Assembly: GCF_050920415.1 (NCBI RefSeq)
Contig: NZ_CP169310.1
DNA: 64,000 nucleotides
Reading direction: 5' to 3' (one strand)
Source of the DNA: Escherichia coli
GTDB lineage: Bacteria > Pseudomonadota > Gammaproteobacteria > Enterobacterales > Enterobacteriaceae
Position numbers: made by a program. Of the stretch, positions 42,001 to 45,000 are shown in pieces. Positions within the stretch are counted from its first letter, which is position 1. The number at the start of each line of letters is the position of its first letter.

Positions 42001-45000
42001 GTTTCTGGCATGTCGGGTGTCTGCCCCTGAAGTACCTCACACTTCCGGAAAGCGGGGACTTCCGTCCCCGCCCGGCAGCTTACTTCCGTGCTTCGTAGGC
42101 CAAAGTTACCTGCACCACTGTATTTCCTCTGTGAATATTCAGTTCACATAACCGTTCCCTGAATATCAGTGAAAAACACAACACCGTAGCGCACACAGCG
42201 AGCAACCCGATAAGGGCATATTTCGTCATAAACTTTGACCTCTCTGCAAAGAAGAGGCTACAATCAGTAGTGCTACGTACTTCATGCAGACCTCACGAGT
42301 TAATGGATTAACGAGTGGGGTCTTCGCATCTCTGGTACCTGCGTCTTGCCTGAACCAGAAAGGCTCAGACACCCGCCGCGATAATACCACATTCCCCGTT
42401 GCTGACTATTACCTGCATTTCCCGCTTTTTACTACAGAAGCACGAAGGCGTCACTCCAGCCAATAAGTATGCTTTTTATTTACATCAATTTTTAATCCGG
42501 TACCGACGTTTCCCTCCAATTAACTCGCTTTTCGTATGACTCATGGCAATAAAATTTTCTTTACCATATGACAACATCCCAATAATATCAAAGTTGTCTT
42601 TTAAGTTGATGGCATCCTTTTCACTTACAGCGACAATAAGTTGTTTACCAAATTTTCTGGCCATCATTGCAAACTGTGATACTGCTGATCCACCACCTAA
42701 ATCAGGCCATCCAACACAATTAAAAATGATTGTGAGCTCATCACTATTCATTGCATCCCTGATAAAGGAGACAACATTCTCATTTTTCTCTACATCTGAA
42801 TCACTGTTAATCTGGGTGAAATCATAATATTTAGAACCAGGTATAGAATCCCCCTTAAAAAACTTATCAATGTGAGAGGCAGAATTCCCCACAATAAGAA
42901 TATTGTGTTCACACTTAATCATTAATTCTGATACATCATCATATTCCATATATTCACCATTATTATATAAAGTTTAGGTACAGGTGGTTCCGGAATTTAC
43001 TCTGTGGCCACCATTTCCCGTTTTTTATTACAGAAACGCCGGGAGCGGGGAAAACTTGCTTTTTCCCGTTTCCGGGGTTGGACAACTGAGCAACGCGAAG
43101 GCGTCAGCTACGATATTCCTGTGACTGCTGCTCAGCCCCTGTTGTATTCAGCCATTCTACGGTCATCTGCAGCAGTTTTCTGGTATCGTGGCTTCTGAGC
43201 AACGGAATACCAGCCTGCCTCAGAACCTCTTCCAGAAGAATATCCCGGTGTCTGCGTTCCGGTCGTAAATGGCTGGCATCATCCAGCTCTACTGCTGCAA
43301 CAATACTGAACGAACGCCGTTCAACGATAACCACATCAACATACCACTGAGACACCATCCTGAATAACTGCCACCACTGGCGTGATTGTGGCCGGATATT
43401 CCTGTTCAGCTGGACGATATCCGCGACCCGTACCTGCGGACACAGATACCACCGCTTCATATCCACAATTCTGAACAGTCCTTTCATAAAACTGACTTCC
43501 CTTTCTGTCAGCAACGTCTTCTGACGTTGCCAGTATTCACCGCTGGCCAGTATTCGCTCTGCATCACCGGTCCGTATACCTGCCGCATGCAATTCCATCA
43601 GCAAAGGAGAATGCTGATTTACACTTTTGAGGATAATCCGGATAAGTAACGCTGCAATAATCAGAACAATGAGAATAAAAATAATCAGTTTCATTGTTTA
43701 TCTGCTCCTGGTGATTAACTATGCTGAATTATTACCTTACATATTTCCATATCTCTTTTGGTATCCCGTCATATAACTTTCCGGTGATTAATTCCGCTAA
43801 CCGGTGGTCTGCTGCTGAATTAAATGATTCACGTTCACTGCCCGATAAGCTGTCTCTGTTTTTATGAATAATTTTTTCCAGCGTATTGACTGATGAACAT
43901 CGCCGTAACTGATACAGCCATTCCTGTTTTGTTTTCGCCATTTTGATTCCCGCTGAGAACAGATGAATGATAAGATTTCCATCGCTTTATTTACGGTGTC
44001 TCCATATCCAGGGTGGAACCGGATCAGCATTTTTCCATATCAAATAAATGGCTCCTTTATTTCAGACATCCTGAATATTGCAGCACACATTGAATAACGC
44101 CTTATTTTGTGAAATAAATCACAAAATATAAACTCACGACTTAATACGGAAAAAACTCTGTGCTACTCAGAATTGTCCGGTCATACTACCCGACCGGAGA
44201 TTAAAAAAGTAAATCTCATGCATTATTCAGCCTTCTGACTCCTGGAGTAATGAAGGCTGCTTTTTTCGTTACACCCTTCCCCGGCAGCGCCGGTGGCAGT
44301 GTTCAGCCCTTTTCCGGGCAAACTGCTGCCAGTCTGTCCGGGGCGCAACACCGGCAGCCCGTCGCCATGCTTCAGCGGCTTCCATCCAGAGCCCCCTGAC
44401 TTCCAGAATAACAGCCCGGCCTCCGGCACGCTGCCAGCGCCAGACCTGAGCGTTCCGTGAACTGTTTCTGAATCCATTCATTTTTCTGTCCCTCCCTTTC
44501 AGTCGTCAGTATTATTGTGGTAAATAATTCAGTGGACTGGGTTCCTTTCGGGTACGGAAGTTATTTCCTTTTAAGCCTTATTTCCCTGCTTCCTCTCTCT
44601 GATGGAGGCTTTTTTTTATTTCTCATCAAGCACGGCCTGAAGTTCTGCCTTTATCCGGTTCTGGCGGCGGATTTTATCCAGACGCGCTGCCGCATACGCT
44701 TCCTCCTCCTGAGAAATATGCTCCGTCACATACCCTTCCGTGTCATACCGGCAGGCACCGGCTTTCATGGCACACAGATAGCTTTCTGAACGGGTAATGG
44801 CCTTCAGCGCCCTGCGCAGTTTTTTATGCGAGAGCGGGATATTCCGCTGCACCACGTCTTCCAGTAACACGTCACGGATACCGCAGGCCAGAAGCCGGGG
44901 GGTGTCACCGTCAAATAATCCCGGCCACCAGGGCTTCAGGGTGTTCACGGCCTCATCCAGTGTGGGCAGGTTCAGATAAATGGACAGCGCCTGTCTGGCC

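What the first reader, a model, noticed from the sequence alone, without database searches (positions are those of the whole stretch)
43012..43106. Repeated ~90-bp hairpin element found 3' of several AT-rich cargo genes
Copies at 43012-43106 and 55478-55553 are ~80% identical: a conserved left arm (ACAGAAACGCCGGGA), a long imperfect hairpin, and a conserved right arm (GTT(A/G)GACAAC.GAGCAACGCGA(A/G)GGCGTCAG). A hairpin-less copy sits at 42418-42454. Each lies immediately downstream of a minus-strand AT-rich ORF. It could be a cassette-boundary recombination site, a MITE, or a shared terminator/sRNA.
Basis: seen in the sequence. Interest (0 to 1): 0.5.

Follow-up and report, generated by a model that had tools for sequence, protein, structure and literature searches.

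The report
Strand-specific two-hairpin module of F plasmids
The repeat is real, but it belongs to the conserved backbone of F-type conjugative plasmids rather than to the cargo genes: a 75-base two-hairpin module at two fixed junctions that folds well only on the strand opposite the genes (the strand sent into recipients), and whose function is still unknown.

Summary
Observation confirmed with corrected borders. Full copies lie at 43033-43107 (A) and 55482-55553 (B); an internally deleted remnant lies at 42437-42454. The window is an IncF plasmid with tra and rep genes on the minus strand.

The element is backbone, not cargo. B is the hairpin module found 35 nt after traT in canonical F-like plasmids. 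A is the module between the last transfer-side gene and the PLD-nuclease/hok/copB-repA block. It occurs in 3375 of 5426 complete E. coli genomes, almost only on plasmids, with a median of two places per genome. AT-rich ORFs were inserted beside it.

Architecture: long hairpin SL-I, GTTGGACAA, short hairpin SL-II, CGTCAG. SL-I is kept by compensatory changes (13 of 19 pairs). Pairing is kept only on the plus strand: 35 G.U pairs against 2, and the plus strand is more stable in 20 of 20 variants. That strand is antisense to tra and, by the oriT nic sequence, is the transferred strand.

Neither strand of the window's copies meets a terminator consensus. The element is not a MITE, not an integron attC and not in Rfam.

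Function is inferred. It most likely acts in antisense RNA. A transferred-strand DNA signal is the main rival. Interest is moderate.

The parts
43033..43107 (+). Element copy A (replicon-proximal type), full length: GAAACGCC...GGCGTCAG
   Evidence: CM R1 98.1 bits, E 4e-27. The identical 75-mer occurs in L002, L024, L025, L066 and L067 in different flanking contexts.
43035..43079 (+). SL-I of copy A: AAC/GTT base, a 1x1 G.G mismatch, a 16-bp stem with three G.U pairs, and loop CUUGC
   Evidence: RNA fold -29.0 kcal/mol on the plus strand against -15.1 on the minus strand. DNA-parameter fold z -3.9 against -2.1. Pair counts.
43080..43086 (+). Invariant spacer GGACAAC between the two hairpins
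   Evidence: Invariant in alignments A3 and A4. GGACAA is also kept in the diverged C-type copies.
43093..43104 (+). SL-II of copy A: ACGC-GAAG-GCGT. The conserved tail GGCGTCAG spans 43100-43107.
   Evidence: Folded. Equivalent hairpins with different inner stems occur in the Klebsiella-type and C-type copies.
55482..55553 (+). Element copy B (traT-distal type), full length
   Evidence: CM R1 56.4 bits and R2 75.4 bits. The orthologous copy lies 35 nt after traT in L006, L007, L008 and L069.
55484..55527 (+). SL-I of copy B. The upper stem and the loop (UUUA) differ from copy A but remain complementary.
42437..42454 (+). Remnant of a second A copy (GAAGCACGAAGGCGTCAC). SL-I and the spacer are deleted, consistent with a 57-nt loss between two AACGC direct repeats.
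   Evidence: Alignment A2. Weak CM hit at 42437-42454. It lies at the position where L002, L003 and L066 carry the full element. The deletion mechanism is inferred.
42413..42436 (+). Duplicated left flank (CTGCATTTCCCGCTTTTTACTACA), paired with 43009-43032
   Evidence: Alignments A1 and A2.
43009..43032 (+). Left flank of copy A, duplicated at 42413-42436. It corresponds to the region upstream of the hok promoter in plasmids that lack the insertion.
   Evidence: Alignment A2.
42485..42949 (-). AT-rich 154-aa ORF, bracketed by copy A and the remnant (inserted cargo)
   Evidence: ORF list and annotation. GC 0.38-0.42. No hit in NCBIfam, PADLOC or Pfam.
43104..43694 (-). DUF2726 gene. Its TGA stop codon (43104-43106) lies inside the conserved CTGACG end of copy A.
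55621..56100 (-). AT-rich 159-aa ORF inserted between traT and copy B
   Evidence: Absent from canonical plasmids L007 and L008. No family hit.
54656..55309 (-). 217-aa ORF (GTG start, not annotated in the public record) between copy B and traD
   Evidence: No family hit.
55432..55456 (-). Neighbouring hairpin in the traT-traD spacer with the opposite strand bias: three C.A mismatches on the plus strand, which are G.U pairs in the tra-sense RNA
   Evidence: Read directly from the sequence. A 50-nt window gives -13.2 on plus against -25.0 on minus.

Best explanation
What it is. The repeats are two paralogous copies of a conserved, orientation-fixed module that belongs to the backbone of F-like (MPF_F, RepFIIA) plasmids. 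Its layout is SL-I (16-20 bp), GTTGGACAA, SL-II, CGTCAG.

Where it sits. Copy B is the module that normally lies 35 nt after traT, in the traT-traD spacer. Copy A is the module that separates the last transfer-side gene from the PLD-nuclease/hok/copB-repA block.

How the window's arrangement arose. Cargo ORFs were inserted next to both copies. The insertion of the 154-aa ORF left a duplicate of copy A, and that duplicate later lost its core.

What is shown. The hairpin is under selection for pairing, but only on the plus strand. That strand is antisense to every tra and rep gene, and it is also the nicked, transferred strand. In the tra-sense mRNA the stem is riddled with A.C mismatches, and that mRNA must read through the element.

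What is inferred. G.U-rich stems are the only way to have a hairpin on one strand and not on its complement. I therefore read the element as a strand-selective signal placed inside co-directional operons.

Preferred mechanism. It works in antisense (plus-sense) RNA. There, a stable stem-loop with a U-turn type loop, followed by a small terminal hairpin, would form or stabilise the ends of antisense transcripts entering from the replicon side, or pair with the read-through sense transcript. Either would insulate one module from the next.
For: Identity and distribution.
- The window is 100% identical to plasmid pCFSAN004180G, and the gene map comes.
- 3375 of 5426 complete E. coli genomes hold the element, with 6094 places on plasmids against 52 on chromosomes.
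- Copy B follows traT in canonical plasmids.
- Copy A follows DUF2726, a PIN-neighbour ORF, ANR, DsbA, bacteriocin immunity, traI or finO. It precedes PLD, hok or copB.

Structure.
- In 24 distinct sequences, 95.1% of cells are paired and 13 of 19 pairs carry double changes; 0 of 500 shuffles reach this.
- Diverged C-type copies keep the same architecture with unrelated stems.

Strand.
- The plus-strand hairpin is more stable in 20 of 20 variants, with means of -27.5 against -18.8 kcal/mol.
- G.U pairs number 27 against 0 in A-type copies and 8 against 2 in B-type copies.
- Copy A is the most plus-biased of 102 strong hairpins in the window, although the tra region as a whole favours the minus strand.
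- The adjacent hairpin at 55432-55456 has the opposite bias.
- The oriT nic sequence TTTGCGTGGGGTGTGGTGCTTTT lies on the plus strand of the same plasmid.

Read-through. In Klebsiella plasmids the PLD start codon lies 33 nt after the element, and no promoter-like site was flagged between them.

RNA leaning.
- About 9% of pairs are G.U.
- The A-type loop is invariant C-U, then a variable base, then R, which fits YUNR. The B-type loop is UUUA.
- In the Klebsiella lineage, SL-II plus a U tract is flagged as a plus-strand terminator-like site.
- Promoters for the plus-sense RNAs Sok and CopA lie to the left of copy A.
Against: - No promoter-like site lies just upstream on the plus strand in any context examined.
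- The E. coli A and B copies have no U tract after either hairpin on the plus strand.
- No Rfam family covers the element, whereas other antisense RNAs of the same plasmid type are in Rfam.
- FinO RIP-seq in Salmonella, which carries pSLT, reports only FinP and RepX as major ligands (PMC8136791).
- No transcript data were available to me.
- The traT-distal region was reported in 1987 to have terminator activity. I know this only from the paper's title, as cited. If that activity maps to this hairpin, the tra-sense RNA would also be a working form.
- The sequences are phylogenetically related, so the wobble counts overstate the number of independent events.
Confidence: 0.4

Rival explanations
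1. Transferred-strand DNA signal. The hairpins would fold in the single-stranded T-strand after entry into the recipient and act as a priming or primosome-assembly-type site (ssi) for complementary-strand synthesis. Copy A lies just 3' of the RepFIIA block on the T-strand, so a primer made there would be extended back across hok, copB, repA and oriR. That would make the replication genes double-stranded, and so expressible, early.
For: - The structured strand is the nicked strand.
- The element is confined to plasmids of the F-type conjugation family.
- Its size of about 75 nt and its two hairpins resemble phiX174-type primosome assembly sites; this comparison rests on my own knowledge.
- The plus-strand bias persists with DNA energy parameters (z -3.9 against -2.1 for A; -3.8 against -2.2 for L021).
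- No promoter is needed under this model.
- In every A-type context the element lies on the transfer side of the replicon block.
Against: - G.T pairs are costly in DNA, yet they are frequent here and fixed at particular positions.
- No CTG primase start is conserved.
- The stem is far too small for an Frpo-type single-strand promoter. Published screens for those used hairpins below -75 kcal/mol and found them only in leading regions (PMC12672017).
- The element is retained unchanged in non-conjugative derivatives such as pO157-size plasmids.
- One C-type copy (L029) is oriented the other way relative to a repA fragment.
Confidence: 0.25
2. Classical reading: a leaky intrinsic terminator or 3'-end stabiliser of the tra-sense (minus-strand) mRNA. 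It would lie after traT and after the last transfer-side gene, giving high traT expression and lower downstream expression.
For: - The element lies 0-35 nt after stop codons of co-directional genes.
- On the minus strand the hairpin is followed by CGUUUC(U/C), the only U-containing tail on either strand.
- Terminator activity near traT is indicated by the title of Jalajakumari et al. 1987, as cited.
Against: - Minus-sense stems carry about 10% A.C mismatches and essentially no G.U pairs: 0 of 283 cells in A-type and 2 of 95 in B-type.
- The minus-sense fold of copy A is no better than shuffled sequence (z -0.05).
- The consensus scan does not flag the element as a terminator on the minus strand.
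- PLD starts 33 nt after the element, so transcription has to pass through it.
- The flanking single-stranded motifs are conserved in sequence, which a plain terminator does not need.
Confidence: 0.15
3. The element has no function of its own beyond being portable homology. It would be a conserved junction kept because homologous recombination between copies on different plasmids swaps the adjacent gene blocks, and integrates circular element-plus-gene segments.
For: - Both flanks vary right up to the element borders.
- Gene blocks are bracketed by two copies in the window (copy A and the remnant), in Citrobacter L075 and in Buttiauxella L020.
- The A and B copies are in direct orientation.
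Against: - Homology alone does not explain compensatory substitutions, strand-specific pairing or invariant single-stranded motifs across Escherichia, Klebsiella, Pantoea, Kluyvera and Citrobacter.
- 75 nt is a short tract for efficient RecA recombination.
- Exchange at the element is better seen as a consequence of its conservation than as the reason for it.
Confidence: 0.1

Closest known systems
Plasmid cis-antisense RNAs with U-turn loops (FinP/traJ, CopA/CopT, Sok/hok of F-like plasmids)
   Same: - It lies on the strand opposite the genes of the same plasmid family.
- It has a long stem-loop with a YUNR-type loop, followed by a spacer and a second small hairpin.
- The upper stem and loop differ between the paralogues A and B, while the flanks are conserved, as with allele-specific FinP and CopA loops.
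- CopA and sok are detected in this window by Rfam.
   Different: - No promoter is recognisable.
- No U-tail is present in the E. coli copies.
- No transcript is known and there is no Rfam family.
- It lies in intercistronic spacers rather than over a translation start.
traT-distal terminator region of F/R100 (Jalajakumari et al. 1987, J Mol Biol 198:1; known to me by title and citation only)
   Same: Copy B is the first large hairpin after traT in the traT-traD spacer of canonical plasmids.
   Different: - The hairpin is selected on the opposite strand.
- It lacks a canonical U tract.
- It has a paralogue at the replicon border and diverged relatives elsewhere.
- Other hairpins in the same spacer (55432-55456 and a CCGGC/GCCGG stem) fit a tra-sense role better.
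Single-strand initiation sites / primosome assembly sites (ssi, PAS) and Frpo single-strand promoters of conjugative plasmids
   Same: - It lies on the transferred strand.
- It is built from hairpins.
- It is about 70-80 nt with two stem-loops, like phiX174-type PAS (my own knowledge).
   Different: - It lies outside the leading region.
- It is far smaller than Frpo-type hairpins, at about -20 kcal/mol with DNA parameters against below -75.
- It has no -35/-10 mimic.
- No priming data exist.
Integron attC sites
   Same: - It is a folded, strand-specific imperfect hairpin with variable stems.
- It has a conserved GTTRRRY-like GTTGGAC/GTTAGAC at the 3' base of the stem, paired AAC/GTT.
- It is sometimes found on both sides of a gene block.
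   Different: - The 5' partner is CAGAAAC, not RYYYAAC, so the R box is not formed.
- GTTGGAC lies in the middle of the element rather than at the cassette end.
- There is no integron integrase or cassette array.
- It occupies only fixed backbone positions.
REP/BIME and MITE-type repeated palindromes
   Same: It is a short, imperfect, intergenic palindrome repeated within a replicon.
   Different: - Each plasmid carries about two copies at fixed loci.
- It is essentially absent from chromosomes.
- It has no terminal inverted repeats or target-site duplications.

Membership tests
Integron attC | R' core GTTRRRY at the 3' base of the hairpin | tested here: met
   GTTGGAC (A) and GTTAGAC (B) follow SL-I. 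L008 has CCTGGAC and L003 has GGGGGAC, so the motif is not universal.
Integron attC | R'' inverse core RYYYAAC complementary to R' | tested here: not met
   The 5' side is CAGAAAC or TCGGAAAC. Only AAC/GTT pair, and the outer four positions are purine-purine or otherwise mismatched.
Integron attC | Association with an integron integrase and a cassette array | tested here: not met
   The annotated neighbours are tra, finO, hok and rep genes. The only recombinase annotated in the stretch examined is the resolvase-type gene beside the Tn3-family transposase.
MITE / REP-type dispersed repeat | Many copies dispersed over unrelated loci, including the chromosome | tested here: not met
   Two full copies in the 64 kb window. 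In complete E. coli genomes the median is 2 places per genome, with 52 of 6146 places on chromosomes.
MITE / REP-type dispersed repeat | Terminal inverted repeats with target-site duplication | tested here: not met
   The ends are GAAACGCC and GGCGTCAG, with only ACGCC/GGCGT complementary. No flanking duplications appear across contexts.
Intrinsic terminator, tra-sense (minus strand) | Stable GC-rich hairpin immediately followed by a U tract | tested here: not met
   Not flagged by the consensus scan. The tail is CGUUUC(U/C). The minus-sense stem has about 10% A.C mismatches, and the copy A fold has z -0.05.
Intrinsic terminator, plus strand | Stable GC-rich hairpin immediately followed by a U tract | tested here: inconclusive
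   SL-II plus AGGATTTTGT is flagged in Klebsiella L063, and U-rich runs follow SL-II in several other A contexts. Nothing is flagged in L004 or L009, or in the E. coli A and B copies.
Cis-antisense regulatory RNA | Own promoter on the antisense strand | tested here: not met
   No sigma-70-like site lies upstream of the element on the plus strand in the window, L004, L007, L009 or L063. This is a consensus scan only.
Cis-antisense regulatory RNA | Recognition stem-loop with a YUNR (U-turn) loop, with structure kept on the antisense strand | tested here: met
   Loops are CU[U/G/C][G/A] in A-type copies (columns 24-27 of alignment A4), UUUA in B-type, and CUUG and CUCG in two of three C-type copies. 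The plus-strand pairing bias is shown.
Cis-antisense regulatory RNA | A detectable transcript | not testable with these tools
   No expression data are held. No Rfam family matches.
ssi / primosome assembly site | Located on the strand that is single-stranded in vivo | tested here: met
   The F-type nic sequence lies on the plus strand of the same plasmid, upstream of traM. That this sequence marks the transferred strand is established knowledge of F oriT.
ssi / primosome assembly site | Directs primer synthesis on SSB-coated single-stranded DNA | not testable with these tools
   This needs an M13 ori-defective plaque assay or in vitro priming.
Frpo-type single-strand promoter | Long hairpin that reconstitutes -35 and -10 boxes | tested here: not met
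   The DNA fold is about -20 kcal/mol over 86 nt, against the threshold below -75 kcal/mol used to find such promoters (PMC12672017). A 19-bp stem cannot hold both boxes.
Any Rfam 15 family | Match to a curated covariance model | tested here: not met
   No hit at gathering thresholds in the window. Only noise appears at E values up to 10 around both copies.

The most novel reading that the evidence does not exclude
The element is a transferred-strand DNA signal outside the leading region. It would be a small two-hairpin site that host replication proteins use to start complementary-strand synthesis in the recipient. Copy A is placed so that the RepFIIA replication genes are the first backbone genes to become double-stranded. 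Its G.T-rich stems would be a design that lets it fold in the T-strand without creating a terminator in the tra mRNA.
Probability: 0.25. Interest if true: 0.8.

Novelty: new variant of a known kind. Interest (0 to 1): 0.5.

Why it matters
IncF plasmids are the main carriers of resistance and virulence genes in E. coli and Klebsiella, and this module is present in most of them. It is a conserved, covarying structure whose selected strand is the opposite of what its position after genes suggests. It marks the two places where cargo is repeatedly inserted into an otherwise tight backbone.

If it acts in antisense RNA, it adds an unrecognised layer of control at the traT/traD border and at the transfer/replicon border. 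If it acts in the transferred strand, it would be the first establishment signal known outside the leading region. It would then bear on the open question of how the rest of the T-strand is primed.

Practically, its borders are useful landmarks for annotating cargo insertions. The covariance model could seed an Rfam-type family.

Tried and rejected
- **Rfam.** Gathering thresholds on the whole window, and E values up to 10 around both copies, gave nothing relevant.
- **Metagenomes and viral contigs.** A right-arm pattern scan of JGI metagenomes returned 29 loci, all unrelated GC-rich chance matches. IMG/VR gave no match.
- **Representative genomes.** The genome-contig scan gave 24 loci. Six were chance matches: L011 and L019 (labelled Streptomyces and Microbacterium) carry genuine F-plasmid-type copies, probably contaminating plasmid contigs, while L012, L013, L014, L017, L018 and L022 are chance. 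The remaining 18 loci carry true copies, most on enterobacterial plasmid-like contigs.
- **Tn3-family inverted repeat.** I compared the right arm (GGGGTTGGACAAC...CGTCAG) with the 38-bp IRs of the Tn3-type transposon in the window and with an IR consensus pattern. Only the GGGGT start agrees and the blocks are out of register, so I dropped this.
- **Other motifs compared by eye from memory.** RfaH ops (GGCGGTAG), Tus Ter (GTTGTAAC), the F nic site (GGGGTGTGG), a CsrA GGA loop and a sigma-70 -35 (TGGACA) were all considered. Each has the wrong strand, variable spacing or is not conserved, so all were rejected.
- **FinO ligand.** Unlikely, because RIP-seq reports only FinP and RepX as major ligands.
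- **Promoter for the downstream gene inside the element (tra-sense).** No plausible hexamers were found.
- **Cargo ORFs of 154, 159 and 217 aa.** No hits in NCBIfam, PADLOC or Pfam.
- **Literature.** Searches for the traT terminator, ssi sites and plasmid sRNAs found no description of this element. The 1994 Microbiological Reviews article on the F transfer region was not held.
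Full report
**1. Context**

The window is 100% identical to E. coli plasmid pCFSAN004180G, an IncFIA/FIB plasmid with an MPF_F conjugation system. All transfer and RepFIIA genes are on the minus strand. From high to low coordinates they run as follows:
- traG 57586-60429
- the exclusion gene
- traT 56304-57035
- a 159-aa ORF
- a 217-aa ORF
- traD 52456-54600
- vapBC, on the plus strand
- traI, traX, finO and hha
- the DUF2726 gene 43104-43694
- a 154-aa ORF 42485-42949
- hok 42080-42229
- copB
- repA

Rfam finds CopA, sok and three known antisense RNAs in the window, but nothing at the finding.

**2. The observation**

The two copies align well: conserved arms flank a hairpin whose upper part differs between them. 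The left-arm motif is enriched, with 4 hits against 0.25 expected. A covariance model finds exactly two full copies in the 64 kb window, at 43033-43107 (98 bits) and 55482-55553 (56-75 bits).

The 'hairpin-less copy' is an 18-nt remnant at 42437-42454, plus a 24-nt duplicate of the left flank. It lies where plasmids without the 154-aa ORF carry the full element, about 180 nt upstream of the hok start codon. The remnant is what a deletion between the two AACGC repeats flanking SL-I and the spacer would leave, apart from three substitutions. That mechanism is inferred.

**3. Backbone, not cargo**

- BLAST of copy A reaches the 5000-record limit in PLSDB.
- Copy B is found in 4383 PLSDB records.
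- In complete E. coli genomes the element occurs in 3375 of 5426 genomes. There are 6094 places on plasmids and 52 on chromosomes, with a median of two places per genome.
- In canonical plasmids copy B lies 35 nt after the traT stop codon and 146 nt before traD, with no cargo present.
- Copy A always has the same orientation. It lies between the last transfer-side gene and PLD-nuclease, hok or copB. That last gene may be DUF2726, a PIN-neighbour ORF, ANR, DsbA, bacteriocin immunity, traI or finO.
- Both flanks change right at GAAACGCC and GGCGTCAG.
- The AT-rich ORFs of the window (GC 0.33-0.42 against 0.55-0.64 in tra) are insertions beside the element. They have no recognisable family.

**4. 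Anatomy**

The analysis used twenty unique sequences, later extended to 24 distinct ones. They come from Escherichia, Salmonella, Klebsiella, Enterobacter, Pantoea, Kluyvera, Citrobacter, Buttiauxella and Entomohabitans plasmids. The layout on the plus strand is:
- an AAC/GTT base;
- a 1x1 mismatch;
- a 16-bp stem, which together with the AAC/GTT base pairs forms SL-I;
- the invariant GGACAA(C) spacer;
- a short GC hairpin, SL-II;
- the tail CGTCAG.

On the model-guided alignment 95.1% of cells pair, and 13 of 19 pairs show changes on both sides. No shuffle out of 500 reaches the observed values, and slid controls fall to 39-70% paired. That alignment is fitted to the model. An independent MAFFT alignment of the 15 A-type sequences gives 95.4% paired.

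Three diverged copies keep the architecture with unrelated stems: L029:7442-7518, L021:11653-11721 and L027:862-932. In these, SL-II is closed by GAC...GUC around an inner stem that covaries.

**5. Which strand**

This is the main result.
- The plus-strand hairpin is more stable than its complement in 20 of 20 variants. The means are -27.5 against -18.8 kcal/mol.
- At the defined pairs, A-type copies have 27 G.U pairs on the plus strand and none on the minus strand. B-type copies have 8 against 2.
- Some positions are G.U in most sequences and alternate with A-U or G-C.
- Copy A is the most plus-biased of 102 strong hairpins in the window, although the G-rich coding strand makes most tra hairpins minus-biased.
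- The neighbouring spacer hairpin at 55432-55456 has three C.A mismatches on the plus strand, which are G.U pairs in the mRNA. A general mutational bias is therefore not the cause.
- The bias holds with DNA energy parameters.
- The F-type nic sequence lies on the plus strand of the same plasmid, upstream of traM. The structured strand is therefore the transferred strand as well as the antisense strand.

**6. What it is not**

- It is not a canonical terminator on either strand in the window.
- In Klebsiella plasmids the PLD start codon is 33 nt after the element, so tra-sense transcription must read through.
- It is not a MITE or REP-type repeat.
- It is not an attC site. GTTGGAC is present, but its RYYYAAC partner and an integrase are absent.
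- It is not an Frpo-type promoter, because it is too small.
- It is not in Rfam.

**7. Mechanism**

*Shown.* Selection maintains a fold on the plus strand only. It also maintains three short sequence motifs in single-stranded or stem-base positions.

*Inferred.* G.U-rich stems let the element fold on one strand while staying weak in the mRNA that must pass through it.

I favour an antisense-RNA role, at about 0.4 including identity. The reasons are:
- the G.U frequency is typical of RNA helices;
- the loop follows the YUNR pattern of plasmid antisense RNAs;
- in the Klebsiella lineage SL-II with a U tract looks like a plus-strand terminator;
- the Sok and CopA promoters fire in that direction from the replicon side.

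Against this reading, there is no promoter, no U tract in the E. coli copies, and no known transcript.

The main rival is a T-strand DNA signal such as a priming site, at about 0.25. The classical tra-sense terminator or stabiliser reading is at about 0.15. It fits the position but not the pairing pattern.

**8. Cargo exchange**

Gene blocks bracketed by two copies occur in three places: the window (copy A, the 154-aa ORF, the remnant), a Citrobacter plasmid (L075) and a Buttiauxella contig (L020). The conserved element thus acts as shared homology at which blocks are added or swapped. I regard this as a consequence of its conservation and not as its selected function.

**9. Novelty**

The hairpin region after traT has been in the literature since the 1980s as a terminator region, which I know from a title only. 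I found no description of the following:
- the family as such;
- its second fixed locus at the replicon border;
- its diverged relatives;
- its selection on the antisense, transferred strand.

I therefore classify it as a new variant of a known kind, namely structured, strand-specific plasmid intergenic elements. Its function remains open.

Noticed in passing
window 39824-39834 (minus strand) and 39962-39975 (plus strand): Two inverted copies of a Ter-like core (ATGTTGTAACTAAAG) flank a strong GC hairpin just beyond the repA/oriR region. This resembles the Tus-dependent termini described for R1/R100, a comparison from memory. The surrounding hairpins (39706-40040) are plus-strand biased.
   Followed up: partly
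window 51819-52447 (plus strand): A vapB/vapC toxin-antitoxin pair sits between traI and traD on the strand opposite the tra operon. This is another cargo insertion inside the operon, and a source of plus-sense transcription towards copy B.
   Followed up: no
window 43104-43106; L062 1904-1906: The stop codon of the upstream gene (DUF2726 in the window, a roughly 100-aa ORF in Klebsiella) is the TGA embedded in the conserved CTGACG end of the element. Different genes therefore terminate inside the element.
   Followed up: partly
L029:7442-7518, L021:11653-11721, L027:862-932: These are diverged relatives with the same two-hairpin architecture and the GTTGGACAA...CGTCAG motifs, but unrelated stems. 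They lie in other plasmid contexts: near a repA fragment beside a Tn3-family transposase, 3.7 kb beyond repA, and between a serine recombinase gene and parAB.
   Followed up: partly
L075 2252-2326 and 4776-4850; L020 4530-4604 and 7051-7125: In a Citrobacter portucalensis plasmid, two A-type copies in the same orientation bracket a 2.4 kb block of five genes, including DUF2726. A Buttiauxella contig likewise carries two A-type copies in the same orientation, 2.4 kb apart; the genes between them were not examined.
   Followed up: partly
window 32475-36290 and 36606-36658: A Tn3-family transposon (resolvase plus transposase) has 38-bp inverted repeats starting GGGGTCCGCTTGG. A third, 75%-similar repeat lies 311 nt beyond its right end, possibly a relic of a second element.
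   Followed up: no
window 44190-44372, 48815-48891, 59604-59689 (all plus strand); 9067-9209: Rfam finds the plasmid antisense RNAs AS-pc02, AS-traI and AS-traG, so antisense transcription of this region is documented in a related plasmid. It also finds an isrN sRNA copy elsewhere in the window.
   Followed up: no
L011 (Streptomyces assembly), L019 (Microbacterium), L015/L016 (Lachnospiraceae MAG), L031/L032 (Acinetobacter idrijaensis): Exact E. coli-type copies of the element, with F-plasmid flanks, occur in assemblies of unrelated taxa. These are most likely contaminating or mis-binned IncF plasmid contigs.
   Followed up: no
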